Positions 232 to 61,248 of a DNA stretch of 64,000 nt are shown here, piece after piece (position 1 is the stretch's first letter; each line of letters starts with the position of its first letter). Under the pieces are notes generated by a model that saw only the letters and a program-made list of their open reading frames with translations, did not search any database and was not told where the DNA came from. The stretch is from positions 765 through 64,764 of IMG/VR virus record IMGVR_UViG_2728369139_000007, one strand, 5' to 3'. This DNA comes from a virus (Duplodnaviria > Caudoviricetes). The translations under genes were made by a program, and so were the position numbers.

Positions 232-254
232 GTTGTGTCAAATAACTATTTTGT

Positions 255-683
255 TTAGTTTTCTAATAAACTCACACGTTGCAAGTACCTAACTAAGAAG
301 TAACCGCTAAATCCTTCTAAAAACACCACTTGTGAGCCGTTACTTGCTTTGAATTGATCTGTTCGACAAGTCCAAATTTTACCGTTATAGTGATCCGCTT
401 CTCCGCATGTATGCATCACTACTTTGTCGCCTATTTTTAATTCATCAACTACACCGAAAGCCATTTGATACGCTTCTTTGTATTTACGTTTTATAAAATC
501 AACTTGTTTCCACGTTCTAACGTTTCCAAAGCGCCCTTTCATGTAATTTATACAAACATGATCTATATCTTCTGGAGGGCTGGGAAAGTAAGTGGATGAT
601 TGCTTACCTCCACTCGTTGTATATGTCATCTCTACGCCACCATTTTCATTCTTTATCATTTCAAATGTAGGTTTCATTTCCAT
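255..683 (-). CDS. Hypothetical phage accessory protein (cassette)
   Basis: 142-aa ORF with AAGGGGA RBS; bounded by cassette repeats at 239 and 698. Confidence 0.75.
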   Translation of the reverse strand: MEMKPTFEMIKNENGGVEMTYTTSGGKQSSTYFPSPPEDIDHVCINYMKGRFGNVRTWKQVDFIKRKYKEAYQMAFGVVDELKIGDKVVMHTCGEADHYNGKIWTCRTDQFKASNGSQVVFLEGFSGYFLVRYLQRVSLLEN

Positions 684-713
684 TCCCCTTTTCGATTAAA
701 ATAACGCTTTGGT

Positions 714-875
714 TTAGTTTTCAATGATTAGATTAATAGCTCCAGCTTGATCTAAATTTATTAATAAACTCTCTGCTACTTTCTTTGTAATCGTATTAGT
801 AGCAAATGCAATTTCCTTACCATCTACAGTAATTCTAGCTTTATTTTCGATGTATTCGATTTTCACATCTTTCAT
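714..875 (-). CDS. Small hypothetical protein, 53 aa (MKDVKIEYIENKARITVDG...LIIEN), not in ORF track
   Basis: Translated by hand; AAGGAG RBS; stop lies inside the cassette repeat. Confidence 0.7.
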   Translation of the reverse strand: MKDVKIEYIENKARITVDGKEIAFATNTITKKVAESLLINLDQAGAINLIIEN

Positions 876-902
876 ATTTCACATCTCCTTTTTATACAAA
901 AT

Positions 903-1064
903 TCAAATTTGATAGTATTTTGGTTTAGCACCGTGCACTATAGCAGCACGATATAAAAAATTTCTAACAATATACAAAGCTTCATGTTCATCCTTTGCAT
1001 TTATATCTACATTTAGCGTCCCTTCCATTGGCGGTAGTTCATAAGTAACAACAAATGTATACAT
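903..1064 (-). CDS. Small hypothetical protein (MYTFVVTYELPP...)
   Basis: ORF track 903..1136; start trimmed to the ATG just after the dUTPase stop. Confidence 0.55.
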   Translation of the reverse strand: MYTFVVTYELPPMEGTLNVDINAKDEHEALYIVRNFLYRAAIVHGAKPKYYQI

Positions 1065-6367: not shown

Positions 6368-6370
6368 TTT

Positions 6371-46273: not shown

Positions 46274-46687
46274 TCATTCATTATTTAACTCTAGTTCTTC
46301 TTCAAATGAAGCTTGCTGCAAGTTTCGTTTTATTTGCAATCCTTGATTTATTAACTCTTTAACTTCTTTTCCTAATAAGAAGTCAACTGTTTGACTATTT
46401 AACATTTCCCATACGCCTATTAATTCTGTATGTTTAGGTGTACTCATGAAATATTCAGTTGATTTAACCCCTTCAAAATGCCTATGATATTCCCTATGAC
46501 ATTCACCACACAACGGAATTAGATTATCAATATCATTTGTTCCACCTAGGTTTAGCGCTGTTTTATGATGCAAATGAATATCTACAGTGGAGCAACATCT
46601 TTCACATATTTTGTGATTACCTTCTTGTTTCCAATACAATTGACTTATATTACGAAATTCCTGGCGAAGTTCATCATATGTCTTCAT
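46274..46687 (-). CDS. HNH endonuclease
   Basis: CERC...HLHH...GGTNDIDNLIPLCGECH. Confidence 0.88.
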   Translation of the reverse strand: MKTYDELRQEFRNISQLYWKQEGNHKICERCCSTVDIHLHHKTALNLGGTNDIDNLIPLCGECHREYHRHFEGVKSTEYFMSTPKHTELIGVWEMLNSQTVDFLLGKEVKELINQGLQIKRNLQQASFEEELELNNE

Positions 46688-47262
46688 TATAGATTCTCCT
46701 CTTTATATTCTTTAGCCTTAGCATAAATAGTAGAACGTGGAACACCGGTCATTTTAGATATATCGTTTACACTCAATCCATTTGCTTTCCTATTAAAATA
46801 AAGATTTAAAGATTTTTTTACCTGTTTTTCATCCTGTCCTTTACGACCCATATGTTTACCTTGCGCTTTTGCTCTTTCTCGGCCTTCTGACGTTCTTTCG
46901 TTAATTAAATCTCTTTCAAATTCAGCAATTGCACCTAACATCGTGAACATTAATTTACCTGCAGGTGTAGAAAAATCAATTTGTTCTTTTATAAATACAA
47001 TTGAGATTTCTTTTGCGTCTAACTCTCGCACGATTTTATGTAAATCAAAAGTAGAACGAGCCAAACGATCAATTTTATAAACAACCAATTTGTCACCAGC
47101 ACGCAAATAATCTATTGCATTACTCAACTCTTCACGATCACTTTTCGCTCCACTTTGTTTTTCAGTAAAAATCTTTTCACATCCGTATTCTTTCAATTTA
47201 TCAATTTGCAGTCCTAAATCTTGATCTTTTGTACTTACCCTCGCATATCCAATTAATGACAC
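46687..47262 (-). CDS. Small serine recombinase (resolvase/invertase)
   Basis: GYARVST, DRLARS, AEFERDLINERT, C-terminal HTH. Confidence 0.93.
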   Translation of the reverse strand: MSLIGYARVSTKDQDLGLQIDKLKEYGCEKIFTEKQSGAKSDREELSNAIDYLRAGDKLVVYKIDRLARSTFDLHKIVRELDAKEISIVFIKEQIDFSTPAGKLMFTMLGAIAEFERDLINERTSEGRERAKAQGKHMGRKGQDEKQVKKSLNLYFNRKANGLSVNDISKMTGVPRSTIYAKAKEYKEENL

Positions 47263-47854: not shown

Positions 47855-48338
47855 CTGCTATCATCCTCCTATTCAAATATCCATTGCATTCAAATTCACG
47901 TTTAATGTGTAATTTCTATATAACAAAGAAAAAAGCACCCATTATGGATACTTTAACTTCTCCATATGTTCTTTTACTCTTCTCATAGCCACCGCACTCT
48001 TACATTTTTTAATTTGACTACGCGCCTTGCGTCAGTGGCTATGAGAGAAGCAAAAGTTCTCCCAGGAATTTTTTAATTTTATATCGGGACATCTTTCCGT
48101 ACCCCTTTAAATTGACACCCTAAAGGTAGGCAGGTATCAACTTAAAGGAGAACAGAAGCTCTCCTCCGTTTAGACCGTTTAAATTAATGAAGTTTTGAAG
48201 ACTATTTCAATTACGATTGAAATCAGAACAACATACAGTAAGGCTCGTAACCTCTTACTTGTATGCAACTTAAACTATCTCGCGAATAAGGAAGAGCAAC
48301 GCTATAGGTTCACTCAATCAGGGGTACAGACCGCAAAA

Positions 48339-48630
48339 CGGAAAAAAACCACGTTAAGCAAATTTCAACATAAAAACGAGTACTTTTAACAGCGTTAAGG
48401 AAAACTTTAGTTACCAAAAACCATAATTTTTGTAATTTATTCAATCTTGGTTAAGGTTCTTGATAGCAAAGAGGTAGTCTTTTACCAAAAGTAATTACCA
48501 AAATGATTGCCATAAACCTTTTCCAAAAGTATACGTTACACTTTTCAGCATAGATGTTTCTTTCTCCCCTTGTATTGTCCTTAAATCAGGGGAACATTAA
48601 CCGAAAAATTCTTAACGTGGTTTTTTTCCG
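48339..48630. repeat. Perfect 20-bp inverted repeat in the late-operon leader
   Basis: cggaaaaaaaccacgttaag (48339-48358) and cttaacgtggtttttttccg (48611-48630). Confidence 0.85.
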
Positions 48631-48737
48631 AAATGCTGGCGGTACCCCAATCACTTATCTGCAGTAACTGGTTTCGGCTGTTCATATATAGGTGGCTTTT
48701 TGACGACAAATTTCGACATTTTTTAAACAGAAGAATA

Positions 48738-49238
48738 CTAACATATACAAAATAAACTTCCACTTAATCGCTCACCAATCTTTCTATCTGCTCTTTTTAA
48801 ATATTCTTGAACAGTAGTTCTTTTCACATTCAAATAATTGGAAATTTTATCCTGTGTAAATCCATACCCTCTAGACATTACATATATTTCCTTTTCCCTT
48901 TCAGTCAATGTTGATAATGCATCTTCCAGTTGTATACGATCCCATTCAGAAATAACACTCTCTTTTGCTTCCGTATCCCATTCATATATCGGCATTTCAG
49001 TACTACGTGTATATCTTTGCATTAATAACGGGTCACATGGTCTTTCTCGCTGATATGCAGCCCTACGTTCAATCCCTCTTTTTTTACCTGGCTGTTTAGC
49101 AGTACGCATCCATTCCAGGGCATAATTAATATCGCTAATCATTCCATTAATAATACTTATATCCTTTTCTGTTGCGCCCACCTTAGATGCTTCTAATCGC
49201 TTTCTTGTTTCGGTATACTGCTTCATTAAATCTTTCAT
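48738..49238 (-). CDS. Xpf-like sigma-70 region-4 late-gene positive control factor
   Basis: EWMRTAKQPGKKRGIERRAAYQRE; LTEREKEIY...TTVQEYLKRA. Confidence 0.82.
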   Translation of the reverse strand: MKDLMKQYTETRKRLEASKVGATEKDISIINGMISDINYALEWMRTAKQPGKKRGIERRAAYQRERPCDPLLMQRYTRSTEMPIYEWDTEAKESVISEWDRIQLEDALSTLTEREKEIYVMSRGYGFTQDKISNYLNVKRTTVQEYLKRADRKIGERLSGSLFCIC

Positions 49239-49385
49239 AAGCCAGGTTCCTCCTTTTATATAAAAAGAGGACGCTGAATTATATATAGGAAGAAATGCTT
49301 TCCTATGCATAATCAACGCCCTCTAAATGCGGACTATTACTATCATTATTTTTTATTTATCCTTTTAATACGGTATGTGAAATTT

Positions 49386-49742
49386 TTATCTTAGATTTCG
49401 CTTTTTCAATTGCTCACTGATATAACTCGGATCTCGTATACCAAGCTTCTTTGCTATCTGCACCTTTGTCATTCCACTTTCTAGCATTATTAATGTTTTC
49501 TCACATAATACATCCCATTCTGCTTTCGTTCTCCTTTTCGGCTTATCACCTACATAGGTTCCTCCTAATGCAGTACCTAATTTATTTATCTGTTTACCTA
49601 TATCACAATTATGTAAACAATGACTTGGTTTGTATTGATACTCACATCTATTACAATGATGGTCCTGTAAATCTATTATCTTTATGCGTACGGTTTTATT
49701 ATTAATACTATTCGTTTGTTCCATCAGCTGCAGATTGGCCAT
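49386..49742 (-). CDS. Zn-finger plus HTH protein
   Basis: CNRC...HCLHNCDIG; C-terminal HTH. Confidence 0.7.
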   Translation of the reverse strand: MANLQLMEQTNSINNKTVRIKIIDLQDHHCNRCEYQYKPSHCLHNCDIGKQINKLGTALGGTYVGDKPKRRTKAEWDVLCEKTLIMLESGMTKVQIAKKLGIRDPSYISEQLKKRNLR

Positions 49743-50254
49743 TCTAATTTATCGACATGTACCAGGTAATCTACAAGAGCACGATCAGTTCTTTCTACTA
49801 CATACGCATGTTTCTCAAATTCTTCCCTCGGAATTGATTTACGGGCACCATCGTATAACATAGCTTCATAGTATTCTGCTACTAATGAAACCGGAACAAA
49901 ATAGATAATCTGATCTTCTCTGAATTCTATTAAAAAGAAACAAATAGCTCCTTGCTCTTGCGTATCTTTTAAATAGTCGATTTGATGTCTACCTATATTA
50001 TCTAATGGAAATCTCGTTGTTTCTTTTGTGGATTTTGCTTCAAAGTAAACTGCTCTTCCCTTATATACACCATCGTAATCTACTGTAGATTTACTTTCCC
50101 ATGCGCTTTTTGTTATTTCACCTTTTTTATTCGTTTTTATAACTTTTACTGGTGTTGGACGCTTATTAAATATCCCTACATTCGCTGATTTATACATACG
50201 GCATGTAATATTTAATAAAAGCTCAAATGCCATTCCTCTATTTGCGTACCCCAT
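49724..50254 (-). CDS. recU: RecU Holliday junction resolvase
   Basis: NRGMAFE, KRPTP, STVDYDGVYKG..FEAK. Confidence 0.92.
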   Translation of the reverse strand: MGYANRGMAFELLLNITCRMYKSANVGIFNKRPTPVKVIKTNKKGEITKSAWESKSTVDYDGVYKGRAVYFEAKSTKETTRFPLDNIGRHQIDYLKDTQEQGAICFFLIEFREDQIIYFVPVSLVAEYYEAMLYDGARKSIPREEFEKHAYVVERTDRALVDYLVHVDKLEWPICS

Positions 50255-50270
50255 GCTGCTCCCTCTCTTT

Positions 50271-50393
50271 CTATTTAATAACTCCACGTTTTACAAATAT
50301 ATTTCGCCACGCTGCATCTACCCTTTGTTTCTCAAATTGTTTAGCGCGACGATTAATATATTTTTTGATTTTTTGTTTCTTACGATTTGCCAT
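50271..50393 (-). CDS. Small basic protein, 40 aa (MANRKKQKIKK...AWRNIFVKRGVIK), not in ORF track
   Basis: Translated by hand. Confidence 0.65.
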   Translation of the reverse strand: MANRKKQKIKKYINRRAKQFEKQRVDAAWRNIFVKRGVIK

Positions 50394-50422
50394 TCTCTTA
50401 ATCTCACTTTCTATTCAAAGAA

Positions 50423-50593
50423 TTATTTCGTTTTTTTCAATGTTATCTCGTATCCATCAATTTCTTTTAATCTCGTAACCGTTAAATTACCGACCCATCC
50501 TCCTCTTCGTTTTGCTTCCTTTACAGCCTCATCCAAATCCGCTGCTGCAATTAAATACGAATCCCAATTTGTCTTTACCGAGAATAGATACAT
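50423..50593 (-). CDS. Small cassette protein, 56 aa (MYLFSVKTNW...), not in ORF track
   Basis: Translated by hand; AAGGAG RBS; flanked by cassette repeats. Confidence 0.65.
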   Translation of the reverse strand: MYLFSVKTNWDSYLIAAADLDEAVKEAKRRGGWVGNLTVTRLKEIDGYEITLKKTK

Positions 50594-50803
50594 TCTGTTT
50601 CTCCTTCCTATTAAAAGGATTATTTTGTTAAAAACCCCGAAGATATTTTCTTGTCAGTAAAATTTTTCTGATAATTTCATTTGCTAGGAAAATAAGGATT
50701 ATTAGTTTCATACATCAAAATACTTATACATATTCATTACAAACAAAATGTTAATTTTGTATGTTCCCTTATAAAATTAAACTTAAGAAAGGGTGATAAT
50801 ATA

Positions 50804-50905
50804 ATGCTTAAGTTTTTTCTAACCTTAACTGCTAAAAACGATCAAACAATAACATGGAAGAAATACTATTATGAAATTGTTAAAGCTATGATCATTTATA
50901 AATGA
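50804..50905 (+). CDS. Possible 33-aa peptide (MLKFFLTLTAKNDQTITWKKYYYEIVKAMIIYK) in a reversed cassette
   Basis: AAAGGGTGA RBS; translated by hand. Confidence 0.4.
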   Translation: MLKFFLTLTAKNDQTITWKKYYYEIVKAMIIYK

Positions 50906-50965
50906 ATCGAATATATTTCCATGAGATTCAATCAAATTTTATTGAACAGATTTACAATCCTTACT

Positions 50966-51071
50966 GAATAAAACTCAATATTCCGTCAATACTGTAAACA
51001 ACCCATTAAGTTACTTTCTCCTTGTTCCCCCTTGGAGAACCGAGCAGTTAGCTTTTGCTAGCTGCTCTTTT
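50966..51071 (+). ncRNA. Putative small RNA cassette with C/U-rich anti-SD-like tract
   Basis: GAATA-N17-AATACT forespore-sigma-like promoter; tttctccttgttccccctt; terminator gagcagttagc-tttt-gctagctgctc plus T-run. Confidence 0.45.
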
Positions 51072-51447
51072 AATTTTTAGGAACTTCAAATTTCGCTTTC
51101 AATCGTTCATAAGTTATTTTTTCCTGTTCTTCTCGTTTTCTTTTATATTCCTCTTGTTGTTTTTGTTGTTCTAATCGTCTTTGATTCTCATACTCTTCAA
51201 TTTCTTCATGAGATATTATTCCTTTTTCATGCAATGTTTTTCTTAACCAATCCTTTTTTAATATATAAGCTCTAGCGTTGCCTTTACTGTAAGCATGAAT
51301 TTCACTGTGATCATCTTCGCGCCATTGCTCAACTACAAAGATTCCCTTATCCTTTGTGACAATCGTAATAGCTTCAGCAAATTGAGCCATGTGTGTAAAA
51401 GCTATTTCTTTTCCGATTAAATCTTCTTCTTTATCAATAAAGTACAT
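51070..51447 (-). CDS. Hypothetical phage protein
   Basis: 125 aa cassette ORF. Confidence 0.7.
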   Translation of the reverse strand: MYFIDKEEDLIGKEIAFTHMAQFAEAITIVTKDKGIFVVEQWREDDHSEIHAYSKGNARAYILKKDWLRKTLHEKGIISHEEIEEYENQRRLEQQKQQEEYKRKREEQEKITYERLKAKFEVPKN

Positions 51448-51484
51448 TTAACATCTTCCTTTTCTACAAAATGAAATTTTTATA

Positions 51485-51682
51485 TTAATTACTTTCATCC
51501 CTCATAACCCAATTCAATCTCATTACTACTTGGTCCAAAATTCCTATTTGTTTATTAACACCATCACGATATTCCTCACTATGAATTCTTGAAAAGCCAT
51601 TTTGGATCCGTTTTAAACCTGATTTTCTACGTTCTAAATCAGTAATAAGCTGTTTAACTTCTTCAGATTTCAAACTGCACAT
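51485..51682 (-). CDS. Hypothetical phage protein
   Basis: 65 aa cassette ORF between two repeats. Confidence 0.6.
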   Translation of the reverse strand: MCSLKSEEVKQLITDLERRKSGLKRIQNGFSRIHSEEYRDGVNKQIGILDQVVMRLNWVMRDESN

Positions 51683-51713
51683 CCTTTTCTAATAAAATAG
51701 CGTTTTTATTCAA

Positions 51714-52188
51714 TTATCGGTCTCACTTCTTCGTTTTCTTATAATCGACATGAAATATTGCATATTTCGACATTTTTCTACACAAACAGTCAAATATGGT
51801 GTATTATATAGTAGAAGAGTAAGGTAAGAGTTACTCTTTGCCATTTTAGGAAAAGGCCTGCTATTTATAGCGGGTCCTTTTTGTTAAACTACAACTAAAA
51901 TAACCTTTTTATTCAAGTTGATGACCATACTAATTGGACGCATTTACCAGTATTTTTACCAATAAATTCATGATATGGTTAATTAGTCGAGTACGTCATT
52001 ACTTGACATTTACCCTTAGAAGCCCCGTAGATAAACGGGGTTTCTTTTATTTAAATTATAATTTCTTTAAAAACTTTTTACCTTTTAACTGGACAAGCAT
52101 ATGTTATTGTATGGAGGCATCCATTCATAGAAATCTACCTTTCTTGTTAAAGAGCATACTTACATGTGTGCTCTTTTTTGTTTGCTAT
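51714..52188 (+). ncRNA. Three tandem non-coding promoter-to-terminator cassettes
   Basis: Terminators at 51851-51882, 52018-52048 and 52149-52179, each followed by a cassette repeat; no RBS-supported ORF. Confidence 0.5.
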
Positions 52189-52203
52189 GAAATAACGATT
52201 TTG

Positions 52204-52359
52204 TCACTTTCTAAATGCACTAATTACTCTAGAAACCATATCGTCAAAAGCATTCACCATACTAGTAACACAAAGAAATATAGCTATTAAAGGCATACAC
52301 CAAAAGTAGTGATACCACTTCGAGTAGCTTTTCATTTTCCACCACTCATGCAATCCCAT
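52204..52359 (-). CDS. Small membrane peptide, 51 aa (MGLHEWWKMK...), not in ORF track
   Basis: Translated by hand; AGGTGA RBS; fills exactly one cassette. Confidence 0.6.
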   Translation of the reverse strand: MGLHEWWKMKSYSKWYHYFWCMPLIAIFLCVTSMVNAFDDMVSRVISAFRK

Positions 52360-52389
52360 TCCATTCACCTGCCAAATAAGGATTTTGTC

Positions 52390-52896
52390 CTAATTATCTC
52401 TAACTGTATTTATGGCCGCTTTGCAAACAGCTATCCCAAACTTTTCTTCAATAACGTAATCATTGTCATCTATGTTAACTTGCCAATCACCAGATTCATT
52501 TTTAACTCTCACATCATGACCGTCTTCATGTAACTGATCCAAGATAATTGCCGCATAATTAATTGCATCGAACTTTTCTATTGGCATATCATGAAACGCT
52601 TTTCCATCTTTACCCCAATGAGTTTCTACCTTTTGCCATTTGAGCACTTCACGAGCAATTACATCATTTAATTTTTCAACTTCATTCAAATCTTCAAACG
52701 AGATCCAACTCTCTTCAAAATGCGCTACAAAATTTTCATCAATAACGCTATACGTAATGCATCCAATTCTCCATTCGAAACCATCATGTGCTATCACAGA
52801 ATCATATTGTTTTAAAGCTTCCCCATTCTTATCAACTGCATTGATTTCAATTGCACCTTTTTTCCACATTTCTTTCGCCTTTTCGATGTTTGTCAT
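52390..52896 (-). CDS. Hypothetical phage protein
   Basis: 168 aa cassette ORF, AAGGGGAG RBS. Confidence 0.7.
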   Translation of the reverse strand: MTNIEKAKEMWKKGAIEINAVDKNGEALKQYDSVIAHDGFEWRIGCITYSVIDENFVAHFEESWISFEDLNEVEKLNDVIAREVLKWQKVETHWGKDGKAFHDMPIEKFDAINYAAIILDQLHEDGHDVRVKNESGDWQVNIDDNDYVIEEKFGIAVCKAAINTVRDN

Positions 52897-52934
52897 TTTT
52901 TATTCTCCCCTTCGTTTTTAAATAAGAATTTTGT

Positions 52935-53090
52935 TTAGTTTTCCTTAATCTTTTGTTTAGTCCACTCCACAACTACTCTTCTTGATTGAAACCAGTATGC
53001 ATTGCACGTAGGACAAACATATTTAGTACAAGTTTCAGCGTAATTAACTGTCTCTAGCTTATTTCCACAATCTAAACAATGTTTAGCCAA
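52935..53090 (-). CDS. Small Zn-ribbon protein, 51 aa (CLDC...CPTC), not in ORF track
   Basis: Translated by hand; AAGGAG RBS, TTG start. Confidence 0.65.
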   Translation of the reverse strand: MAKHCLDCGNKLETVNYAETCTKYVCPTCNAYWFQSRRVVVEWTKQKIKEN

Positions 53091-53119
53091 TATAATCATC
53101 TCCTTTCTCTCCAAAATAA

Positions 53120-53518
53120 CTATTTTGTTATGTTTTTTAGTAATTCTGGATTTTCATAGATATTACCGACGATCTCCAATATGTGCATTTCGTTCCATAA
53201 CGGAACTGCTGCGGTACCATTATCAATCCACCAACATCCTTCAAACATCATCACTTGTCCTACAAATTTTCTTGGTTCTCCAAAAGCAAATACCGTCCGT
53301 TTACAAATGTCACCTTCATAGATTTCTATTCCTTCAGAATCCCTTATTTCTGCATACTGTAAATTTTTCAATTGAGTATATTCGCCGTCATCAACTCGAT
53401 ATATCGCTAACTCTCCATAGGATAACCATGCATTTAAATTGTCCTCGCCTTCAATTTCATCACCTGAATACATCTTTTTAAGTTCTTCATCCCACGCACG
53501 GAACTTATTTTCCCTCAT
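53120..53518 (-). CDS. YopX-family protein
   Basis: MRENKFRAWD...EIYEGDI...EIVGNIYENPELL. Confidence 0.9.
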   Translation of the reverse strand: MRENKFRAWDEELKKMYSGDEIEGEDNLNAWLSYGELAIYRVDDGEYTQLKNLQYAEIRDSEGIEIYEGDICKRTVFAFGEPRKFVGQVMMFEGCWWIDNGTAAVPLWNEMHILEIVGNIYENPELLKNITK

Positions 53519-53555
53519 ATCTATTTCCCTCCCAAATAACGCTTTTGTTTAGTTT

Positions 53556-53708
53556 TTAAAAACCTATGCTAACGCAATCAAAACACCGATATAGAGGTCT
53601 ATTTTTATATGTCCAATAATTTATTCCGTATAATTTACTGACATCCACCTTATTCCCGCAAATATCGCACTTTTTCACTTTTGTAAGTCTCCACCTTTGT
53701 TTCTTCAT
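53556..53708 (-). CDS. Small Zn-finger protein, 50 aa (CDIC...CFDC), not in ORF track
   Basis: Translated by hand; GGAGGAG RBS. Confidence 0.6.
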   Translation of the reverse strand: MKKQRWRLTKVKKCDICGNKVDVSKLYGINYWTYKNRPLYRCFDCVSIGF

Positions 53709-53908
53709 CCATAACTCCTCCGTTTTTATACAAAATTCAAATTTGATTAAAATCTATAAAAAACATTTTGTAGAATTTTTTAAAATTTATATATACTTAT
53801 AATAAATAATTAGTTATACTATGAAAGTTCCTTACAGTCATAAATATGGAATCGACAATTGCAACAGCTTTACTTCCTTAAGTCCTAGCATTTTAAGCTA
53901 GGACTTTT

Positions 53909-54397
53909 TCACTTCACATCGACACGCGCTTGACTCGCTTCCCGGCTAAATCCGTCTGGATATCTTTTAGCTAATTTTGCGATATTCATTTCAGCAATAT
54001 CTTGTAACGTATATCCCAGTTCATGCGCCATAATCGATACATAATACATAATGTCTCCAAGTTCTAAGGCTAATTTATAAGTGTTTCCGTCCTCTTCTCC
54101 TGGACAATGCGATGGTTGGAAACCATGTCCGTGATAAATTGCTTTTTTAACAATATCAGCCACTTCACCAGCTTCTCCTGTAAGCCCTAAAGCTGCATTT
54201 GAAACACGTCCTCCAAAATCAGTTTTATTATTCCAAGTACGTAATGTTACTTCCTGATAATCGTTTAATTCACCTATTGATAAAATGCTTGCAATCTGTA
54301 AAACAGTAGCCTCTTTTATAACTTGACCTTCTTTTCTTGCTTCACTAATTAATTTCGTTGCTTCCAATACACCGTTTTCCATCACTTTCATTTTCAT
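53909..54397 (-). CDS. MazG-like nucleoside triphosphate pyrophosphohydrolase
   Basis: GLTGEAGEVADIVKK...ELGDIMYY...NIAKLAKRYPDGF. Confidence 0.88.
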   Translation of the reverse strand: MKMKVMENGVLEATKLISEARKEGQVIKEATVLQIASILSIGELNDYQEVTLRTWNNKTDFGGRVSNAALGLTGEAGEVADIVKKAIYHGHGFQPSHCPGEEDGNTYKLALELGDIMYYVSIMAHELGYTLQDIAEMNIAKLAKRYPDGFSREASQARVDVK

Positions 54398-55515: not shown

Positions 55516-56343
55516 TTATGCTTCTACAAATCTTTGTAAACGTTGCTTCGCTATTTCTCTTCTATAACTCGCAGCTTCATTTTTTACAGTTAGACTTGTT
55601 TCAACCATTCGGTCATATGAACGTTTACCAACTTGATGTTTCAATTCTTTTGGTTCTAAATTACTCGTATACAGAGTAGGAAGTTCTTTTCTGTACCGAC
55701 CATCAATGATATTGAACAATTTTTCTTCTACCCACTCCGTAGTTTTTTCTGCCCCAATATCATCTAATATAAGTAAGTCGCATTCTAAAAGAGCTCTCAT
55801 AATTTGTGTTTCATTTTCTTTGTTTTCGCTGTTAAACGTACTGCGAATGCGTTGTAATAATTCTGGAACGCTTTGAAATACGACAATGTATCCTTTTTTA
55901 GAAAGCTCATTTACAATCGCGGCTGCTAAATGGGTTTTACCATTACCAGGTTCTCCCCAAAGTAGTAACGATTCACCTTTCCACTCTTTAAACGTCTTCA
56001 CGTATTTCACCGCAACTTTATAAGCTGTCTCTGATCCATTTCTATCTAGAAACGATTCAAATGTACTTTTGGAGAACCTTTCTCCTAAGTTACTGATGCT
56101 GAACAACTTTTCTATTTCTCGTTTCTTAGCAAAGTTTTGAGCTTCACGTATTTCTGCTTCTTCACGTTCTACAACACACTCACATGTAGGAAGTATTTTA
56201 TTTTTAATACGTAACTGTGGAACTTCTACAGTGATTGCTGCGATATATTTATTACAGTGTTCGCATGTATACCCTTCCGTTTCTTCACTACAAGCCGATG
56301 TATTCACTATCCGAGTCATCACTCTTCCGATTGATTCCGACAC
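55516..56343 (-). CDS. DnaC/IstB-like helicase loader ATPase
   Basis: GEPGNGKT Walker A; LLILDDIG Walker B. Confidence 0.9.
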   Translation of the reverse strand: MSESIGRVMTRIVNTSACSEETEGYTCEHCNKYIAAITVEVPQLRIKNKILPTCECVVEREEAEIREAQNFAKKREIEKLFSISNLGERFSKSTFESFLDRNGSETAYKVAVKYVKTFKEWKGESLLLWGEPGNGKTHLAAAIVNELSKKGYIVVFQSVPELLQRIRSTFNSENKENETQIMRALLECDLLILDDIGAEKTTEWVEEKLFNIIDGRYRKELPTLYTSNLEPKELKHQVGKRSYDRMVETSLTVKNEAASYRREIAKQRLQRFVEA

Positions 56344-57169
56344 GCTTTTTCACTCCTTTATTTCGTTGATATTCAGTTTCTAAAGCATCAACATCTTTTA
56401 AAGTTTTCACATTATTGTTAACCCACTGTTTTAAAATGCCCTCAGCATAATTCCATTTTTTCTGCTGTTTCAAAGCACGTTCCATAGCTGCTTGTACAAG
56501 TTCTTCGTTCGTATCGTTTATCCATTGCGAAATATTTTCGGCTACGAATGAATTTAAAATACCGAAATTATTTTCGTAGAAAGAGAAGATGCTACTACTA
56601 CTTACATTCTCTGTAGTATTCTTTGTAGTAATCTTTGTATTTGTCTTACGTTTAAATGTAGGAGGCTCTTCCGTTTTATCGTAAGAGGGTGGTACATTTG
56701 GTTGCAATACCCTCTTACGTTCTAATGTAGGAGGGGTGCCATTCTCCCAATATAAAATTGATATTTTTTGTATTTCTTCAGGAATAGGCTCTATAAACAT
56801 TACATTGTTACATCTAGTTCCATTTACAAATACCGTACGAAACTCGATACGGACTAACCTTCTGTCCTTCAAGTAATCACATGCATCTTTTACTTGTCTT
56901 TTTGTAAAACCAAATGAATCTGCAAATTGCTGATAACTCTTTTGAAGCGTATCCGCTTTAAACTTTTGTTTATATCTCACATTATTTGAATGCTCATCTC
57001 TTACTTCTGTAGGTTTGTACCAATAAACAACCTCTCCTAATATGGAAATCGCGACCATATTTGGTTTTCCATTATCCAGTGTGAGTGTTTTAAACCAACC
57101 ATGATCTATGACATTTCCACGGAAGTTCATCTGTCCTATTTGTAAAACTATGTTGTTCAAATCAGCCAC
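56288..57169 (-). CDS. Phage replication initiator with C-terminal DnaD domain
   Basis: YAEGILKQW DnaD motif; internal direct repeats tcttacgttyWaatgtaggagg near 56644 and 56713 (likely ori). Confidence 0.85.
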   Translation of the reverse strand: MADLNNIVLQIGQMNFRGNVIDHGWFKTLTLDNGKPNMVAISILGEVVYWYKPTEVRDEHSNNVRYKQKFKADTLQKSYQQFADSFGFTKRQVKDACDYLKDRRLVRIEFRTVFVNGTRCNNVMFIEPIPEEIQKISILYWENGTPPTLERKRVLQPNVPPSYDKTEEPPTFKRKTNTKITTKNTTENVSSSSIFSFYENNFGILNSFVAENISQWINDTNEELVQAAMERALKQQKKWNYAEGILKQWVNNNVKTLKDVDALETEYQRNKGVKKRVGINRKSDDSDSEYIGL

Positions 57170-57342
57170 TTCCTTTCACAAATCGCTATGTGCGATTCGC
57201 CACTTCTAATAATTTTCTTTATTTTGTAATGTGGATAACTACCTTTGAAATATTGTTCAATCATTTGTTTTAATTCTTCTTTGTTTTTTGCTAAGTCCCA
57301 GAACTTATTAGGTAATAGCACTTGATATTCGATTAAATCCAT
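57157..57342 (-). CDS. Small phage protein
   Basis: 61 aa, AGGGA RBS. Confidence 0.7.
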   Translation of the reverse strand: MDLIEYQVLLPNKFWDLAKNKEELKQMIEQYFKGSYPHYKIKKIIRSGESHIAICERKWLI

Positions 57343-57371
57343 GTACTATTTCCCTACTTTCCGTGATATAC

Positions 57372-57536
57372 TTATAACAATTGTTTTTTCTTAAAGGACC
57401 CACTGCCATGGGTCTTTTTATTTTGTTCTACGTCACTCCAAGCCCATCGTTTTATCGGTTCGTAAGTAATGTAAAGCAACAATACACTGCATGCGATAAA
57501 TATTGCGAATACTACTAACGATGCTGTATCTTCCAC
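57372..57536 (-). CDS. Small membrane protein, 54 aa (GTG start, EDTASLVVFAIF...), not in ORF track
   Basis: AAGGAGGTG RBS; translated by hand. Confidence 0.65.
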   Translation of the reverse strand: MEDTASLVVFAIFIACSVLLLYITYEPIKRWAWSDVEQNKKTHGSGSFKKKQLL

Positions 57537-57592
57537 TAAATCACCTCCTTAATTATCAAACGGTAATTTTGTTAAACATCTGAAATTCTGTT

Positions 57593-57793
57593 TTAACTAG
57601 CATTTGTTCCCACCTTTTGTGCTTCTACCCATTTAAGAAAGTCTTCCGCTTTAACACGTTTACTTTTTCCAATTACGATCGTTGGGAAGTCCTTTCTCTT
57701 CATAAGTGCATAAGCGGCTGATCGAGAAATATTTAAGAATTCTTGTACATCCTCTGCTTTCAATGAGAATGGTAATTGTTTTATTTGGTACAT
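57593..57793 (-). CDS. Excisionase-like HTH_17 protein
   Basis: LKAEDVQEFLNISRSAAYAL...FPTIVIG. Confidence 0.8.
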   Translation of the reverse strand: MYQIKQLPFSLKAEDVQEFLNISRSAAYALMKRKDFPTIVIGKSKRVKAEDFLKWVEAQKVGTNAS

Positions 57794-57844
57794 GTTTTTA
57801 GCTCCTTTTCATTTTTTATTTAATTCATCCTACAATTGAACTTT

Positions 57845-58072
57845 TTAAAATAAAGTTTGATTTTCTTGAACTTCAACACCTAAAAAAAGATTATATATGT
57901 CTTCTTCTAATATTTGCGCTATTTGCATTGCATCATCTAATGTTGGAGTTGCGTAGCCAGTTTCCCAATTACTGATTACCGTTTTCTGTTTATTTATCAA
58001 TGCCCCTAGTTGTTCCTGGGTAAAATTTTTACGTTTGCGAGCTTTAATTAAATTATGTCTTTTCTTTCCCAT
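57845..58072 (-). CDS. Cro-like XRE regulator
   Basis: TQEQLG...ISNWETGYATP; AGGAGG RBS. Confidence 0.85.
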   Translation of the reverse strand: MGKKRHNLIKARKRKNFTQEQLGALINKQKTVISNWETGYATPTLDDAMQIAQILEEDIYNLFLGVEVQENQTLF

Positions 58073-58116
58073 GATGACACCTCCTAAAATCCAACTTTCT
58101 TGAACTTGTTACACTC

Positions 58117-58146
58117 ATTATATATCCAAGTTTTTTGTACTGTCAA
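58117..58146 (-). promoter_or_regulatory. Early lytic sigma-A promoter within an operator repeat array
   Basis: TTGACA-18-TATAAT; related TTTTyTGDAyT repeats near 57861, 58096, 58131, 58161 and 58260. Confidence 0.75.
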
Positions 58147-58290
58147 TAATAATATTTGAGTTTTTTGGATTTTTAAACAAAGTTTCAAAAAACTAATGCA
58201 AAACTTTTACAAACAAAGTACAATTTAGTTGTACTTTCAAATTAGAAAAACAGTTTACAGTTTTGGATATAATATATATGGGGTGAATTT

Positions 58291-58659
58291 ATGACTATTT
58301 TAGGGCAAAGGATAAAACTTTCTAGAAAAAAACGTGGATTAACACAAGATGCATTAGCATTAAAGATAAAAGAAAAAATGGATACAGAAACTAAAGTAAC
58401 GAAAACTACAATTTCTAATTATGAAACAGGCTATAGTTCGCCATCTAATGAAACTTTAGTTATCATTTCAGATGTATTAGACGTATCTGTCGATTATTTA
58501 TTAGGTCGATCTGATGATCCAGAATTAAATGCAGTTCAGTTCACTGAATTAAGAAAAGAATTTAACGAGCTAATTGACATGTTAGAAAAAATGCCAAAAG
58601 AAAAACAAGATATGTTACTAGATATGATGAAGGCTGCTGTAGGCCATAACAAAAAATGA
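58291..58659 (+). CDS. XRE phage repressor (AimC-like, convergent with aimX)
   Basis: HTH TQDALA...ISNYETGYSSP...DVSVDYLLGR; no peptidase domain. Confidence 0.85.
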   Translation: MTILGQRIKLSRKKRGLTQDALALKIKEKMDTETKVTKTTISNYETGYSSPSNETLVIISDVLDVSVDYLLGRSDDPELNAVQFTELRKEFNELIDMLEKMPKEKQDMLLDMMKAAVGHNKK

Positions 58660-58690
58660 TTGTCAGCAATTGGGCTAACAATCATTTTTT
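58651..58690. terminator. Bidirectional terminator between repressor and aimX
   Basis: aaaaaatgattgt...acaatcatttttt. Confidence 0.75.
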
Positions 58691-58803
58691 TCTTTTTTAA
58701 CTATATTTTTTATGTTCTCTACCAATTTTTTTTCATTCTCATCTGTAGTTAATACTCCTAATTTTAACATTTCCCATAATGTGCTCTCTAGTACATTTTC
58801 CAT
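58675..58803 (-). CDS. aimX: Putative AimX, 42 aa (MENVLESTLWEMLKLGVLTTDENEKKLVENIKNIVKKEKNDC), not in ORF track
   Basis: GGGGGA RBS; canonical position after aimP and facing the repressor. Confidence 0.6.
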   Translation of the reverse strand: MENVLESTLWEMLKLGVLTTDENEKKLVENIKNIVKKEKNDC

Positions 58804-58877
58804 CGTCGCTTCCCCCATCATCCTTAATTATTCAAAAATATCAAAATGCAGAAAATGAATACCCCCCTAAACGTACG

Positions 58878-58911
58878 AAATGCCATTGCACCCTTAGATG
58901 CAATGGCATTT
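58878..58911 (-). terminator. Hairpin after aimP (terminator or AimR-related palindrome)
   Basis: aaatgccattgca-cccttaga-tgcaatggcattt. Confidence 0.65.
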
Positions 58912-58922
58912 TCATTTATTTA

Positions 58923-59072
58923 TTATCCTAAAGTACCCGGATCCATTTTCATTAATTGTGTCTCTTTTACGTTTCCTGCAGCTTGATCATCTTTAGTTGG
59001 TACCGAACCAATCGATATGACTGATAATGCGAGCGTACATGCAATAACTACACTAGCAATTATTTTTTTCAT
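58923..59072 (-). CDS. aimP: Arbitrium pre-pro-peptide AimP, 49 aa (MKKIIASVVIACTLALSVISIGSVPTKDDQAAGNVKETQLMKMDPGTLG), not in ORF track
   Basis: Sec signal peptide plus C-terminal MKMDPGTLG, immediately downstream of aimR. Confidence 0.88.
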   Translation of the reverse strand: MKKIIASVVIACTLALSVISIGSVPTKDDQAAGNVKETQLMKMDPGTLG

Positions 59073-59084
59073 TGTCACTATCCC

Positions 59085-60182: not shown

Positions 60183-60282
60183 AATGAAGCCTCCTTTGAA
60201 CGCGAGACACCTTCCCTGAAATTTCTCAATAGAAAAACTATACCATTTAAGCTTTTTTGAATTTAATATGTTATACTTGTGC

Positions 60283-60372
60283 TGACTCATGGCAAGTGTT
60301 TTCCCTACCATATTAGGGGAACAGCATAAGAGTGGCTGCACACTACTTTTGCTGCGCTATGGGTCTTTTTTG
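60283..60372 (+). ncRNA. Putative structured small RNA antisense to the aimR leader
   Basis: TGTTATACT extended -10 near 60269; outer stem gactcatggc/gctatgggtc plus T-run enclosing two hairpins. Confidence 0.45.
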
Positions 60373-60499
60373 TTCTAATTTATTCTTTAAAATCAGTTTA
60401 TCACAAGATTTAGACTCTTCATTCCATTTATAGTCAAATCATGTTGAGAAAGTTTTTTCAAGAAATCCATTTTTCCACTAAGAATATTTTACCACCAAA

Positions 60500-60513
60500 A
60501 GAACATTTGTTCT
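60500..60513. promoter_or_regulatory. LexA (Cheo) box over the aimR promoter
   Basis: AGAACATTTGTTCT (GAAC-N4-GTTC) at the -35 position of a minus-strand TGGTAAAAT extended -10. Confidence 0.7.
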
Positions 60514-60617
60514 ATATATTTTTGAACTAGTTGTCAATTTATGTGACATTCACTATTATACAGACAGATTTCGTGACATGTATAGTCTAAAAATTCTCAT
60601 GTATTTATACTAAAACT

Positions 60618-60962
60618 ATGAATACATTTGGAGAAAATTTAAAAAAGTTTAGAGCAAGTCGTTCCCTTACTCAATCAGAGTTCGGTGAAAAAGTACAGTT
60701 AAGTCGTAGTCAAGTTGGCAATTTAGAAATTAACTATAATCAACCTGATCTCGACACTCTCGATCGCATTGCAACGTATTTAGGTATTTCTGTTGATGCG
60801 TTAATGGGTAGAACGAGTACACCACATGAAAAGAACATAGCAAATGCCCTCGATGAAATTCAAACGGTTTTCGCAGGCCTGGATGAATCTCAACGAGAAC
60901 AATTTTGTAAACAACTCGTTTTATATGCAAAGTTCCTTAAAACTCATAACGAGCTGTTATGA
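60618..60962 (+). CDS. XRE HTH regulator, probably leaderless
   Basis: TQSEFGEKVQLSRSQVGNLE; TATACT -10 ends 6 nt before ATG; no SD. Confidence 0.85.
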   Translation: MNTFGENLKKFRASRSLTQSEFGEKVQLSRSQVGNLEINYNQPDLDTLDRIATYLGISVDALMGRTSTPHEKNIANALDEIQTVFAGLDESQREQFCKQLVLYAKFLKTHNELL

Positions 60963-61231: not shown

Positions 61232-61248
61232 TTCGTTCCCCCCTTTTC

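What the first reader, a model, noticed from the sequence alone, without database searches (positions are those of the whole stretch)
50416..53909. Cassette array in the right early operon: nearly every unit bounded by a shared ~20-bp repeat
Seen: a semi-palindromic repeat (+ strand consensus AAAT-N5-TTTTG/A) recurs at about 50416, 50613, 51468, 51694, 51897, 52052, 52189, 52373, 52919, 53113, 53533 and 53732. Where the unit is coding, the repeat overlaps or abuts the stop codon of one gene and sits just before the RBS of the next. Units are 120-550 bp and hold one small ORF or one non-coding promoter-terminator unit. Inference: a modular gene acquisition/shuffling array, integron-like in organisation but without attC sites or an IntI. 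The variable 5-bp centre between conserved arms resembles a recombinase core site. The enzyme is not identified here.
Basis: partly seen in the sequence, partly recalled or inferred. Interest (0 to 1): 0.8.

Follow-up and report, generated by a model that had tools for sequence, protein, structure and literature searches.

The report
Ordered junction repeats bounding swappable phage genes
A 22-base sequence repeated in one orientation marks the border of nearly every small gene or terminator unit in the accessory-gene region of Bacillus cereus-group temperate phages, and related phages carry unrelated contents between the same ordered borders, so it looks like a natural plug-and-socket system for swapping phage genes.

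Summary
The repeat is real. On the coding (minus) strand it reads TTAAACAAAAT-cG-TTATTTgA: two near-invariant arms around a 3-4 nt variable centre. A matrix built only from other phages finds 10 copies in this 64.8-kb genome, all on the minus strand (0.2 expected). Six lie in the claimed region (0.02 expected).

The motif forms oriented arrays only in B. cereus-group phages and prophages. It follows stop codons in varying register and precedes either an RBS or a hairpin.

Across 34 sequences the same module is joined to several unrelated neighbours through the motif. Homology changes inside the motif. The centre variants keep one order (GCG, TAG, TTC, TCY, TCG, ACGC) while contents differ; 12 unrelated contents sit between GCG and TAG, including fosB in phage Gamma.

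Best reading: a scaffold of short linker sequences at which modules are exchanged in register by short-homology recombination. The arm conservation points to a further, unidentified function.

An integron-like dedicated recombinase is neither supported nor excluded. Closest analogues are the T4 PeSLs and the lambdoid "boundary sequences". I found no description of it in print. Interest 0.65.

The parts
53730..53751 (-). J0, 'leader' junction variant at the head of the array, just before the RBS of the first small ORF. The same element is at window 896-917.
   Evidence: Identical over about 30 nt between the two arrays although the ORFs behind them differ.
53531..53552 (-). J1 junction (centre GCG)
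   Evidence: 28.3 bits; hit with the leave-out matrix.
53111..53132 (-). J2 junction (centre TAG). The TAG is the stop codon of ORF 53120-53518.
52917..52938 (-). J3 junction (centre TTC)
   Evidence: Start of the block shared with phi4B1.
52371..52392 (-). J4 junction (centre TCC)
   Evidence: End of the block shared with phi4B1.
52187..52208 (-). J5 junction (centre TCG), followed by a hairpin
   Evidence: 16.5 bits; below 15 bits with the leave-out matrix. Hairpin of -14.8 kcal/mol.
52050..52075 (-). Decayed junction copy in front of a recurrent hairpin module
   Evidence: 10.7 bits with the loose matrix. My by-eye comparison with the IEBH junction that precedes the same hairpin.
51895..51916 (-). 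Junction (centre AGG), followed by a hairpin
51692..51713 (-). J6 junction (centre ACGC) before ORF 51485-51682
   Evidence: Start of the block shared with IEBH, 250 and PfNC7401.
51466..51487 (-). J7, divergent junction (right arm TCATTTT)
   Evidence: 15.4 bits with the loose matrix. The same variant occurs in IEBH, Waukesha92 and at genome position 112.
50611..50632 (-). J8, divergent junction before the 56-codon ORF 50423-50593
50414..50435 (-). J9, a second copy of the J8-type junction. IEBH and PfNC7401 have one J8/J9 hybrid and lack the unit between.
53556..53708 (-). Slot content: 50-aa CxxC...CxxC protein
   Evidence: The Cys pattern is read from my translation of the sequence.
53120..53518 (-). 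Slot content: YopX-family protein (132 aa)
   Evidence: Pfam PF09643, E 5.8e-18.
52935..53114 (-). Slot content: zinc-ribbon-like protein (59 aa). In Waukesha92, phiS58 and BceA1 it sits one slot earlier.
52390..52896 (-). Slot content: protein with a phage ABA-sandwich domain (168 aa)
   Evidence: PF18066, E 1.3e-17.
52204..52368 (-). Slot content: 54-aa ORF
51485..51682 (-). Slot content: 65-aa ORF (phrog_12106)
51070..51447 (-). Slot content: 125-aa ORF (phrog_11750)
50423..50593 (-). Slot content: 56-aa ORF, absent from IEBH and PfNC7401
51855..52176 (+). Non-coding stretch with three hairpins (51855-51876, 52018-52045, 52149-52176) whose T-runs lie on the + strand
237..917 (-). Second array in the same order: J0 at 896-917, J1-type at 696-717, J2-type at 237-258. 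J6- and J7-type copies lie at genome 272 and 112, outside the window.

Best explanation
The region is a scaffold of short, oriented junction sequences ('linkers') that separate exchangeable modules in the accessory-gene array. The array lies between the nucleotide-hydrolase gene (MazG or dUTPase) and the RecU or late-regulator genes of B. cereus-group temperate phages.

Each junction is about 22 nt: left arm AACAAAA, a 3-4 nt centre, right arm (G)TTATTT. The centre differs from junction to junction, and the variants keep one order along the array.

Shown by comparison: modules (an RBS plus small ORF, a hairpin, a promoter-hairpin unit, or a reverse-oriented gene such as fosB in phage Gamma) are swapped, inserted or deleted by exchanges that occur in register inside the junction. 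Every joint therefore keeps exactly one motif, and the slot order is preserved.

Inferred: the exchange is guided by the short identity, about 15 nt between junctions of the same type. It would be carried out by general, phage or replication-linked recombination during co-infection or superinfection of lysogens, not by a dedicated site-specific enzyme.

Also inferred: the near-invariant arms point to a further first-order function. One candidate is a NusG-type transcription pause, because the right arm matches TTNTTT on the non-template strand. That function is unidentified.
For: Real and oriented.
- With the leave-out matrix, 10 of 10 hits in this genome are on the minus strand, against 0.2 expected.
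- 74 of 77 hits in this genome plus 12 phage loci are on the coding strand. That matrix was trained on the same sequences.
- 45 of 46 hits of at least 18 bits in 33 RecU-anchored loci are on the coding strand, and 44 of the 45 lie upstream of RecU.

Lineage-specific.
- 78 of 80 YopX loci from other phages have no hit of at least 18 bits, in 716 kb scanned for all 80 loci.
- 10 of 10 RecU loci labelled as other genera and without the motif have no hit.
- In whole bacterial genomes the strict pattern occurs 1-8 times, and several hits sit in tight clusters, for example 4 within 1.2 kb.

Independent of both neighbours.
- In 8,763 pairs of junctions unrelated on both sides, the flanks are about 27% identical but arm positions are 90-99% identical.
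- The stop-codon register varies: offsets 1, 0, 5, 2, -6, -9 and 10 all occur.
- 57 of 99 copies precede an RBS plus ORF, 40 precede a hairpin and 2 precede neither.

Shuffling.
- 134 unique contexts give 94 upstream families, 95 downstream families and 125 combinations.
- 21 upstream families have 2 or more partners and 16 downstream families have 2 or more partners, up to 7 and 5.

Breakpoints.
- 88 of 183 HSP ends within arrays lie within 6 nt of a motif, against 20.7 expected.
- Pairs sharing only the upstream module lose homology between positions 10 and 19. Pairs sharing only the downstream module gain it between positions 2 and 13.
- Homology between Gamma and z1a resumes at the base after the motif in both.
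- The J8/J9 unit of the window is replaced by one hybrid junction in IEBH and PfNC7401.

Conserved order.
- Using the window's own order as reference, 27 other arrays give 164 concordant and 14 discordant pairs. In 5,000 permutations the mean was 89 and the maximum 126.
- 17 GCG-to-TAG units hold 12 unrelated contents of 102-979 bp.
Against: - Exact identity between same-type junctions is only about 15 nt (IQR 13-17). From my own knowledge, that is short for RecA-dependent recombination.
- No single-strand-annealing recombinase was recognised in this genome.
- Conserved arms around a variable centre look like a protein-binding or recombinase core site, and simple homology use does not explain that pattern.
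- The motif fills most of each intergenic gap, so selection for intact genes alone would also put many breakpoints near it.
- BLAST extends through any shared motif, which sharpens the apparent clustering.
- 95 of 183 HSP ends in the arrays are not at a strong motif.
- The arrays are not phylogenetically independent, and 12 of the phage loci were chosen because they share DNA with the window.
- 8 Bacillus-labelled RecU loci have no hit of at least 18 bits.
- No recombination event was observed directly.
Confidence: 0.58

Rival explanations
1. The motif is primarily, or only, a gene-expression signal repeated at each junction. It could be a NusG-dependent RNA polymerase pause site (right arm TTATTT on the non-template strand), or a binding site for an unidentified host or phage protein or RNA, comparable to stoperators or start-associated sequences. 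Breakpoints would sit there only because it fills the intergenic gaps.
For: - Orientation is strict with respect to transcription.
- The arms are 90-99% identical whatever the flanks, and the centre is free. That is the pattern of a recognition site.
- TTATTT fits the -11TTNTTT-6 pause motif described for B. subtilis NusG (PMC9963633, passages read).
- Oriented intergenic repeats with regulatory or unknown roles exist in mycobacteriophages (PMC3203893 and PMC3029335, passages read).
Against: - Every recombinant joint keeps exactly one in-register motif, and homology switches inside it. Random breaks plus selection do not readily give that.
- The left arm and the invariant A in TTATTT are not explained by the NusG motif.
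- There is no copy of at least 15 bits in either immunity or early-promoter region, unlike stoperators.
- 40 of 99 copies precede a hairpin and 23 of 99 follow no ORF stop, so it is neither a start- nor a stop-associated signal.
- Outside tight clusters the strict pattern is at control level in whole host genomes, so it is not a widespread host regulon site.
- No phage regulator is shared by this genome, Waukesha92 and z1a except an AimR-like protein.
Confidence: 0.17
2. The junctions are core sites of a site-specific cassette-exchange system. An unidentified recombinase or nuclease, from host or phage, binds the two arms. The centre acts as an overlap that must match, so exchange is confined to equivalent slots. 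This would be a natural counterpart of cassette exchange with heterospecific lox or FRT sites.
For: - Two conserved arms about one helical turn apart flank a variable centre.
- There is weak dyad symmetry, AAAAT-N4-ATTTT (sequence).
- Centre variants are position-specific and ordered. That would prevent deletions within an array and keep slot order.
- The available identity is very short.
- The centre goes with either neighbour at intermediate frequency, above baseline but below 1 at most centre positions in both upstream-only and downstream-only pairs, as expected for a heteroduplex overlap.
Against: - No recombinase family is shared. This genome has a tyrosine integrase and a serine invertase. 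Waukesha92 is annotated with a 'site-specific recombinase' of about 320 aa. z1a is annotated with one of about 485 aa. The IEBH-type loci fetched have none nearby.
- The arms are not good inverted repeats.
- The same junction type occurs twice in direct orientation in 6 of 32 arrays.
- 11 of 82 content families sit between more than one kind of junction pair.
- Homology-only recombination predicts the same order effect, because same-type junctions share 15 nt and other pairs share 7 nt.
Confidence: 0.1
3. The junctions are simply slowly evolving remnants of one ancestral array. Contents were replaced by illegitimate recombination, and the motif plays no part in the exchange.
For: - The conserved order of variants is what common descent of a scaffold predicts.
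- Most mosaic boundaries in phages lack conserved linkers (stated in PMC3029335, passage read).
Against: - Intergenic DNA that stays 90-99% identical while the genes on both sides are replaced needs strong constraint.
- Illegitimate joints would duplicate, truncate or remove motifs, yet joints keep one intact in-register copy.
- Identical modules occur in different slots and with different partners.
Confidence: 0.08

Closest known systems
PeSLs (promoter-early stem-loops) of T4-type phages (Arbiol et al. 2010, PMC2839356, abstract read; Comeau et al. 2014, PMC4122927, search listing only)
   Same: Short conserved motifs are repeated between small non-essential ORFs in hyperplastic regions. Insertions, deletions and replacements between related phages are attributed to recombination between the motifs.
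   Different: PeSLs are composite promoter-plus-terminator cassettes with a known expression function. This motif is 22 nt, shows no promoter match at the motif sites and no fold. It comes in position-specific variants that keep a fixed order, and it occurs in temperate Gram-positive phages.
Short conserved 'boundary sequences' or linkers of the modular theory, as described for lambdoid phages (cited as refs 21 and 22 in PMC3029335, passage read; the original papers are recalled, not read)
   Same: Short conserved sequences at module borders, proposed to guide homologous exchange of modules.
   Different: In lambdoid phages such sequences are found at only a minority of borders. Here nearly every border in the array has one, with a defined consensus, orientation and order.
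Start-associated sequences (SAS/ESAS) of Cluster K mycobacteriophages (PMC3203893, passages read)
   Same: An asymmetric repeat in one orientation, restricted to the non-structural half, placed in intergenic gaps and sometimes overlapping the upstream stop codon, in front of genes of different families. Its function is unknown.
   Different: The SAS contains the Shine-Dalgarno core and lies 3-7 bp from the start codon. This motif lies upstream of the RBS (6-21 nt from the start codon), and 40 of 99 copies precede a hairpin instead of a gene.
Stoperators of Cluster A mycobacteriophages (PMC3029335, passages read; PMC9283540, search listing only)
   Same: Asymmetric 13-bp sites in many intergenic gaps, oriented with transcription.
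   Different: Stoperators are bound by the immunity repressor, occur across the genome and match the operator at the early promoter. This motif is confined to one array and has no copy in the immunity regions.
Integron cassette arrays (features recalled from general knowledge)
   Same: An array of small, mostly co-oriented genes separated by a recurring site.
   Different: No adjacent IntI, no folded attC, internal promoters and hairpins, and some reverse-oriented cargo. The sites belong to positions rather than to cassettes.
NusG-dependent pause motif -11TTNTTT-6 of B. subtilis (PMC9963633, passages read)
   Same: The right arm TTATTT on the non-template strand fits the motif.
   Different: The match covers 6 of 22 nt. 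The left arm and the fixed A are unexplained, and no pausing data exist for these phages.

Membership tests
Integron | Adjacent intI tyrosine recombinase gene with an attI site | tested here: not met
   The neighbours are MazG, RecU-like, a regulator and a sigma factor. The only tyrosine integrase starts at 62870, about 9 kb away. Relatives have different recombinases or none beside the array.
Integron | attC sites: imperfect inverted repeats that fold as single strands | tested here: not met
   The motif is 22 nt. The mean RNA-parameter MFE of the motif +/- 6 nt is -1.43 kcal/mol, against -1.27 for shuffles. DNA parameters were not run.
Integron | The recombination site travels with its cassette, and order reflects insertion history | tested here: not met
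   Junction variants keep one order in 27 other arrays (164 concordant, 14 discordant pairs) while contents differ (12 contents in 17 GCG-to-TAG units).
PeSL-type mobile regulatory cassette | Composite of a sigma-70-like promoter and a stem-loop terminator | tested here: not met
   None of the 9 promoter-like matches in the region lies at a strong motif site; one of them, + strand 53725-53753, overlaps the divergent J0 site at 53730-53751. The motif has no fold. Hairpins are separate modules next to some motifs.
PeSL-type mobile regulatory cassette | Insertions, deletions and replacements between related phages lie at the motifs | tested here: met
PeSL-type mobile regulatory cassette | Mini-circles formed by exchange between neighbouring motifs | not testable with these tools
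   The two raw-read runs laid did not hold the phage, and contigs cannot show circles.
Boundary-sequence / linker model of modular exchange | A short sequence conserved at module borders irrespective of the modules it joins | tested here: met
   Arm positions are 90-99% identical in 8,763 junction pairs unrelated on both sides.
Boundary-sequence / linker model of modular exchange | Exchange occurs within the conserved sequence | tested here: met
   Homology is lost or gained between positions 2 and 19 of the motif. There is one motif per joint. This is inferred from sequence comparison, not observed as an event.
Boundary-sequence / linker model of modular exchange | Dependence on general or phage homologous recombination functions | not testable with these tools
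   This needs genetics. No annealing recombinase was recognised here.
Stoperator-type repressor sites | The same site overlaps the early lytic promoter or operator and is bound by the immunity repressor | tested here: not met
   No hit of at least 15 bits in either immunity region of the genome. Binding itself cannot be tested.
Start-associated sequences | Contains the Shine-Dalgarno core, 3-7 bp before the start codon | tested here: not met
   The motif ends 6-21 nt before the start and lies upstream of the RBS. 40 of 99 copies are followed by a hairpin.
NusG-dependent pause site | TTNTTT on the non-template strand | tested here: met
   Matrix positions 13-18 read T T A T T T at 85-99% on the coding strand. 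Motif definition from PMC9963633.
NusG-dependent pause site | A NusG-dependent pause 6 nt downstream of the motif | not testable with these tools
   No nascent-transcript data. The RNA runs laid were uninformative.

The most novel reading that the evidence does not exclude
The array is a natural cassette-exchange device. A set of heterospecific junction sites, with common arms and slot-specific centres, is recognised by an as yet unidentified protein. Phages of the B. cereus group can then trade accessory genes slot by slot, without deleting their own arrays and without scrambling slot order. Cargo seen in relatives includes a fosfomycin-resistance gene and, by the review's account, a spore-antigen gene.
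Probability: 0.12. Interest if true: 0.9.

Novelty: new variant of a known kind. Interest (0 to 1): 0.65.

Why it matters
The old 'linker' idea of modular phage evolution has few clear examples, because most mosaic borders show no conserved sequence (PMC3029335, passage read). Here nearly every border of an accessory-gene array carries a defined, oriented 22-nt junction. The junction types also keep a fixed order across phage genera (Cecivirus, Waukeshavirus, Wbetavirus, Hubeivirus, Rockvillevirus, Beceayunavirus; taxonomy lines). That makes the idea directly testable in a Gram-positive system.

The slots hold the accessory cargo of these phages. Examples are YopX and zinc-ribbon proteins and, in phage Gamma, the reverse-oriented fosB gene between junctions J1 and J2. 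The review PMC4113786 describes that same locus as heterogeneous, with a spore-antigen gene in Wbeta (passage read).

Knowing the borders gives three things:
- a rule for finding the cargo of B. cereus-group prophages;
- a way to date and trace exchanges between them;
- a candidate new sequence signal whose reader (polymerase, NusG or another protein) is unknown.

Tried and rejected
- **RNA evidence.** Two RNA runs kept as contigs hold the region at flat depth and cannot show RNA ends. The two raw-read runs of the same species label do not hold the phage; only short shared hairpin segments mapped. Nothing can be said about processing, pausing or circles. Contig joints in run X3 (51072 to 51460, and 53745 to 53904) end at or near J7 and J0. 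They may come from a related prophage and 'between' is unknown, so I did not use them.
- **Loose pattern in IMG/VR.** It was too unspecific and I discarded it.
- **Kin search.** I used handles instead.
- **RNA hairpin.** No more stable than shuffles.
- **Rfam.** Two sub-threshold matches only.
- **Stops in all three frames.** The idea that the junction supplies them is rejected: 25 of 134 contexts, against 29 in shuffles.
- **Promoter within the motif.** None of the 9 promoter-like matches lies at a strong motif site, though one (+ strand 53725-53753) overlaps the divergent J0 site. The region has fewer promoter-like sites than shuffles, 9 against 17.9.
- **Shared phage-encoded binder or recombinase.** Only the dUTPase, the endolysin and an AimR-like protein are shared by this genome, Waukesha92 and z1a.
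- **Analogous repeats in other lineages.** A crude count of exact 11-mers found none in the non-cereus loci. This is a weak test.
- **Resemblances recalled from memory.** ComK AT-boxes (AAAA-N5-TTTT), MogR sites and CodY boxes were considered. I did not pursue them, because the strict pattern is at control level outside tight clusters in whole genomes.
- **Earlier notes of this scan.** None for this genome.

Full report
**Setting.** The window is 64,000 of the 64,764 bases of a single-contig virus record. Megablast against phage records finds only piecewise matches, to 37 records. Thirty-four of them are Bacillus phages of the B. cereus group, and none covers 80% of a 5-kb query.

Genes around the finding are on the minus strand. 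In order of transcription they are:
- DnaD-like (56288-57169) and DnaC-like (55516-56343) loaders;
- four small ORFs, then a MazG-like pyrophosphatase (53909-54397);
- the region of the finding;
- a RecU-like Holliday-junction resolvase (49724-50287), a regulator (49386-49742), a sigma factor (48738-49316), a serine invertase (46687-47262), an HNH protein and the terminase.

The finding therefore lies in the variable stretch between the replication or nucleotide genes and the late regulators.

**The observation.** On the coding strand the repeat reads TTAAACAAAAT-cG-TTATTTgA.
- A stricter form occurs 6 times, all on the minus strand.
- I built a 22-nt matrix. To avoid circularity I rebuilt it from 68 unique instances of other phages only. 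It finds 10 hits in this genome, all on the minus strand, against 0.215 in 200 dinucleotide shuffles (maximum 2). Six are in the claimed region against 0.022 in 500 shuffles.
Four (53732, 51468, 50613, 50416) are divergent variants that recur in relatives. 52052 is a decayed copy (the last point is my by-eye comparison).
- The other four genome hits form a second array at the left end of the contig, downstream of a dimeric dUTPase (window 1066-1647). Its leader and junctions match those of the first array while the ORFs between them are unrelated.

**Anatomy.** The matrix shows two near-invariant arms, AACAAAA and (G)TTATTT, around a centre of 3-4 variable bases.

The motif is not a by-product of coding. 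The stop codon of the upstream ORF sits at offsets 1, 0, 5, 2, -6, -9 or 10 relative to the motif, and 23 of 99 copies follow no ORF stop.

It is not tied to a downstream start either. Fifty-seven of 99 copies are followed by an RBS and an ORF, with the motif ending 6-21 nt before the start codon. Forty are followed by a strong hairpin, and 2 by neither.

It does not fold: MFE is -1.43 against -1.27 kcal/mol for shuffles. It matches no Rfam family at threshold.

The sequence that often follows it (TAGAAAAGGAG) looks to me like an extended Shine-Dalgarno sequence. That reading rests on my recollection of the 16S rRNA 3' end.

**Distribution.**
- In this genome plus 12 B. cereus-group phage loci, 74 of 77 hits of at least 15 bits are on the coding strand and clustered in the equivalent region (matrix trained on these sequences).
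- In whole genomes of Waukesha92 and z1a, 6 of the 7 hits of at least 15 bits lie in the array on the coding strand. The seventh is a 16.4-bit hit on the other strand at z1a position 2053.
- Eighty loci anchored on YopX homologues from IMG/VR were scanned (716 kb in all). Only the two closest relatives have hits, 6 each on the coding strand. The other 78 have none.
- Thirty-three bacterial loci anchored on RecU homologues do not depend on DNA similarity to the array. Fifteen have hits: 45 on the coding strand, 1 on the other. Forty-four of the 45 lie upstream of RecU.
- Those 15 carry B. cereus-group or Bacillus labels, except one labelled Paenibacillus and one a gammaproteobacterial MAG.
- The 18 loci without hits are 10 from other genera and 8 labelled Bacillus.
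- In five whole bacterial genomes the strict 16-mer occurs 4, 8, 7, 1 and 1 times. Reversed-pattern controls gave 2, 1, 2, 0 and 0. Several hits lie in tight clusters, for example 4 within 1.2 kb. It is therefore not a general host signal.

**Shuffling at the motif.** I collected 153 instances in 34 sequences, giving 134 unique 122-nt contexts.
- Clustering the distal flanks gave 94 upstream families, 95 downstream families and 125 combinations.
- Twenty-one upstream and 16 downstream families have two or more unrelated partners. For example, one hairpin module follows five different upstream modules, and the YopX gene follows four.
- In 8,763 pairs unrelated on both sides, the flanks are about 27% identical while arm positions are 90-99% identical.
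- In 79 pairs that share only the upstream module, identity stays high through the centre (0.96 at position 10) and falls to background by position 19.
- In 59 pairs that share only the downstream module, identity rises from background between positions 2 and 13.
- The exchanges therefore happened in register inside the motif, at varying points.
- Of 183 unique BLAST segment ends inside array spans, 88 lie within 6 nt of a strong motif, against 20.7 expected if uniform (ends are not independent events). The remaining 95 lie elsewhere.
- Phage Gamma and z1a (both Wbetavirus) are about 94% identical on both sides of a replaced stretch. Homology resumes at the base after the motif in both.
- In the window, J8 and J9 bracket a 56-codon ORF. 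IEBH and PfNC7401 have one junction made of the left part of J8 and the right part of J9, and lack the unit.

**Ordered junction types.** The centres are not random. Along the window's array they read GCG, TAG, TTC, TCC, TCG, AGG, ACGC, and the second array reads GCG, TAG, ACGC.

Using the window's order as reference, 27 other arrays give 164 concordant and 14 discordant pairs. Within-array permutations gave a mean of 89 and a maximum of 126 in 5,000. I left out two arrays that duplicate others. The arrays are related, so this is not a probability.

Yet contents differ. The 120 inter-junction units fall into 82 families. The 17 GCG-to-TAG units hold 12 unrelated contents of 102-979 bp. Eleven of the 82 families occur between more than one kind of junction pair.

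Junctions of the same type that are otherwise unrelated share a median of 15 identical bases (IQR 13-17). Junctions of different type share 7.

In phage Gamma the reverse-oriented fosB gene lies exactly between J1 and J2, and the order is again GCG, TAG, TGC, TCG, ACGC. The review PMC4113786 describes this as a heterogeneous locus where the fosfomycin-resistance gene was acquired and where Wbeta carries a spore-antigen gene. In the passages found it does not mention intergenic or conserved sequences.

**Mechanism.** What is shown is the anatomy and the pattern of in-register exchange. What is inferred is how it happens.

The simplest reading is the linker model. The junctions are the only sequence shared by otherwise unrelated modules. 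Rare exchanges guided by 13-17 nt of identity swap what lies between them. The different centres favour exchange between equivalent junctions, which keeps the order. Phage recombinases that tolerate short or diverged homology are documented (PMC3945230, title and start of abstract seen), but I recognised none in this genome.

The two-arm conservation suggests a further function. One lead is that TTATTT on the non-template strand fits the NusG pause motif TTNTTT (PMC9963633). This explains only part of the motif.

A dedicated site-specific system would also explain arms, centre and order. But no recombinase is shared among the phages, and same-type junctions coexist in direct orientation in 6 of 32 arrays.

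**Comparison and novelty.** The nearest described systems are:
- the PeSLs of T4-type phages (PMC2839356, abstract);
- the 'boundary sequences' of the modular theory (as cited in PMC3029335);
- the start-associated sequences (PMC3203893) and stoperators (PMC3029335), which are similar in look but differ in position and distribution.

The integron comparison fails on each defining feature I could test.

I found no description of this motif:
- a search for B. cereus phages with 'conserved intergenic' and 'mosaic';
- the emetic-strain phage paper (PMC5590980, term search, 0 hits for 'intergenic');
- the review PMC4113786;
- a search for four 13-nt motif words, which returned 3 unrelated papers.

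Subscription papers on Gamma, Wbeta and IEBH are outside the library and were not seen.

**Limits.**
- The thresholds (15 or 18 bits, 72% flank identity, 60% coverage) are my choices.
- Twelve phage loci were picked through similarity to the window.
- The relatives are not independent.
- BLAST runs through shared motifs.
- The motif fills most of each gap, so gene-boundary selection cannot be fully separated.
- No event or enzyme was observed.

Noticed in passing
window 1-7742 and 57169-64000: The 64.8-kb record carries two early operons, each with its own repressor-like gene (6819-7265 and 58291-58659) and its own junction array. It also has a plasmid-type replication protein (10088-11260) and a tyrosine integrase (62870 onward). 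It may be a composite or tandem element.
   Followed up: partly
window 59085-60341 (-): A 418-aa regulator (phrog_1728) has weak homologues in Waukesha92 and z1a. In z1a the matching gene lies next to an annotated AimP, so this may be an arbitrium-type AimR.
   Followed up: no
window 50740-51067 (+): A reverse-oriented unit inside the array: a 33-codon ORF (50804-50905) followed by a + strand terminator (51042-51067). In RNA run X3 the bin 50985-51121 has a contig word depth of about 13,000, against about 50 around it. Raw reads of another run map only to short pieces here. This may be an abundant small RNA or a shared terminator.
   Followed up: partly
window 51042-53906: All five terminator-like hairpins in the region have their T-run on the + strand, that is, antisense to the operon. 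On the coding strand they are preceded by an A-run. They may stop antisense transcription or be relics of reverse-oriented cargo.
   Followed up: partly
window 48321-48648: 46-nt imperfect inverted repeats (80% complementary) flank 236 bp, about 1 kb from a Hin-type serine invertase (46687-47262), in an ORF-poor stretch below the sigma factor gene. This is a candidate invertible switch.
   Followed up: partly
L250 (phage Gamma) 3955-4528: The reverse-oriented fosB gene of phage Gamma sits between junction types J1 and J2.
   Followed up: yes
L127 7482-8024; L128 11200-11742; L131 6932-7474; L132 6404-6946: Several relatives carry a gene of about 180 codons, annotated as integrase, XerC or mobile-element protein, directly after the ArpU-type regulator. 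This window has no counterpart at that place.
   Followed up: no
hit H25; loci L222, L227: A Stenotrophomonas phage record ends with 127 bp that are 98% identical to window 50613-50739. Contigs labelled Paenibacillus and gammaproteobacterial MAG carry junction copies (5 in the Paenibacillus-labelled contig, 1 in the MAG contig). The labels or assemblies may be mixed.
   Followed up: no
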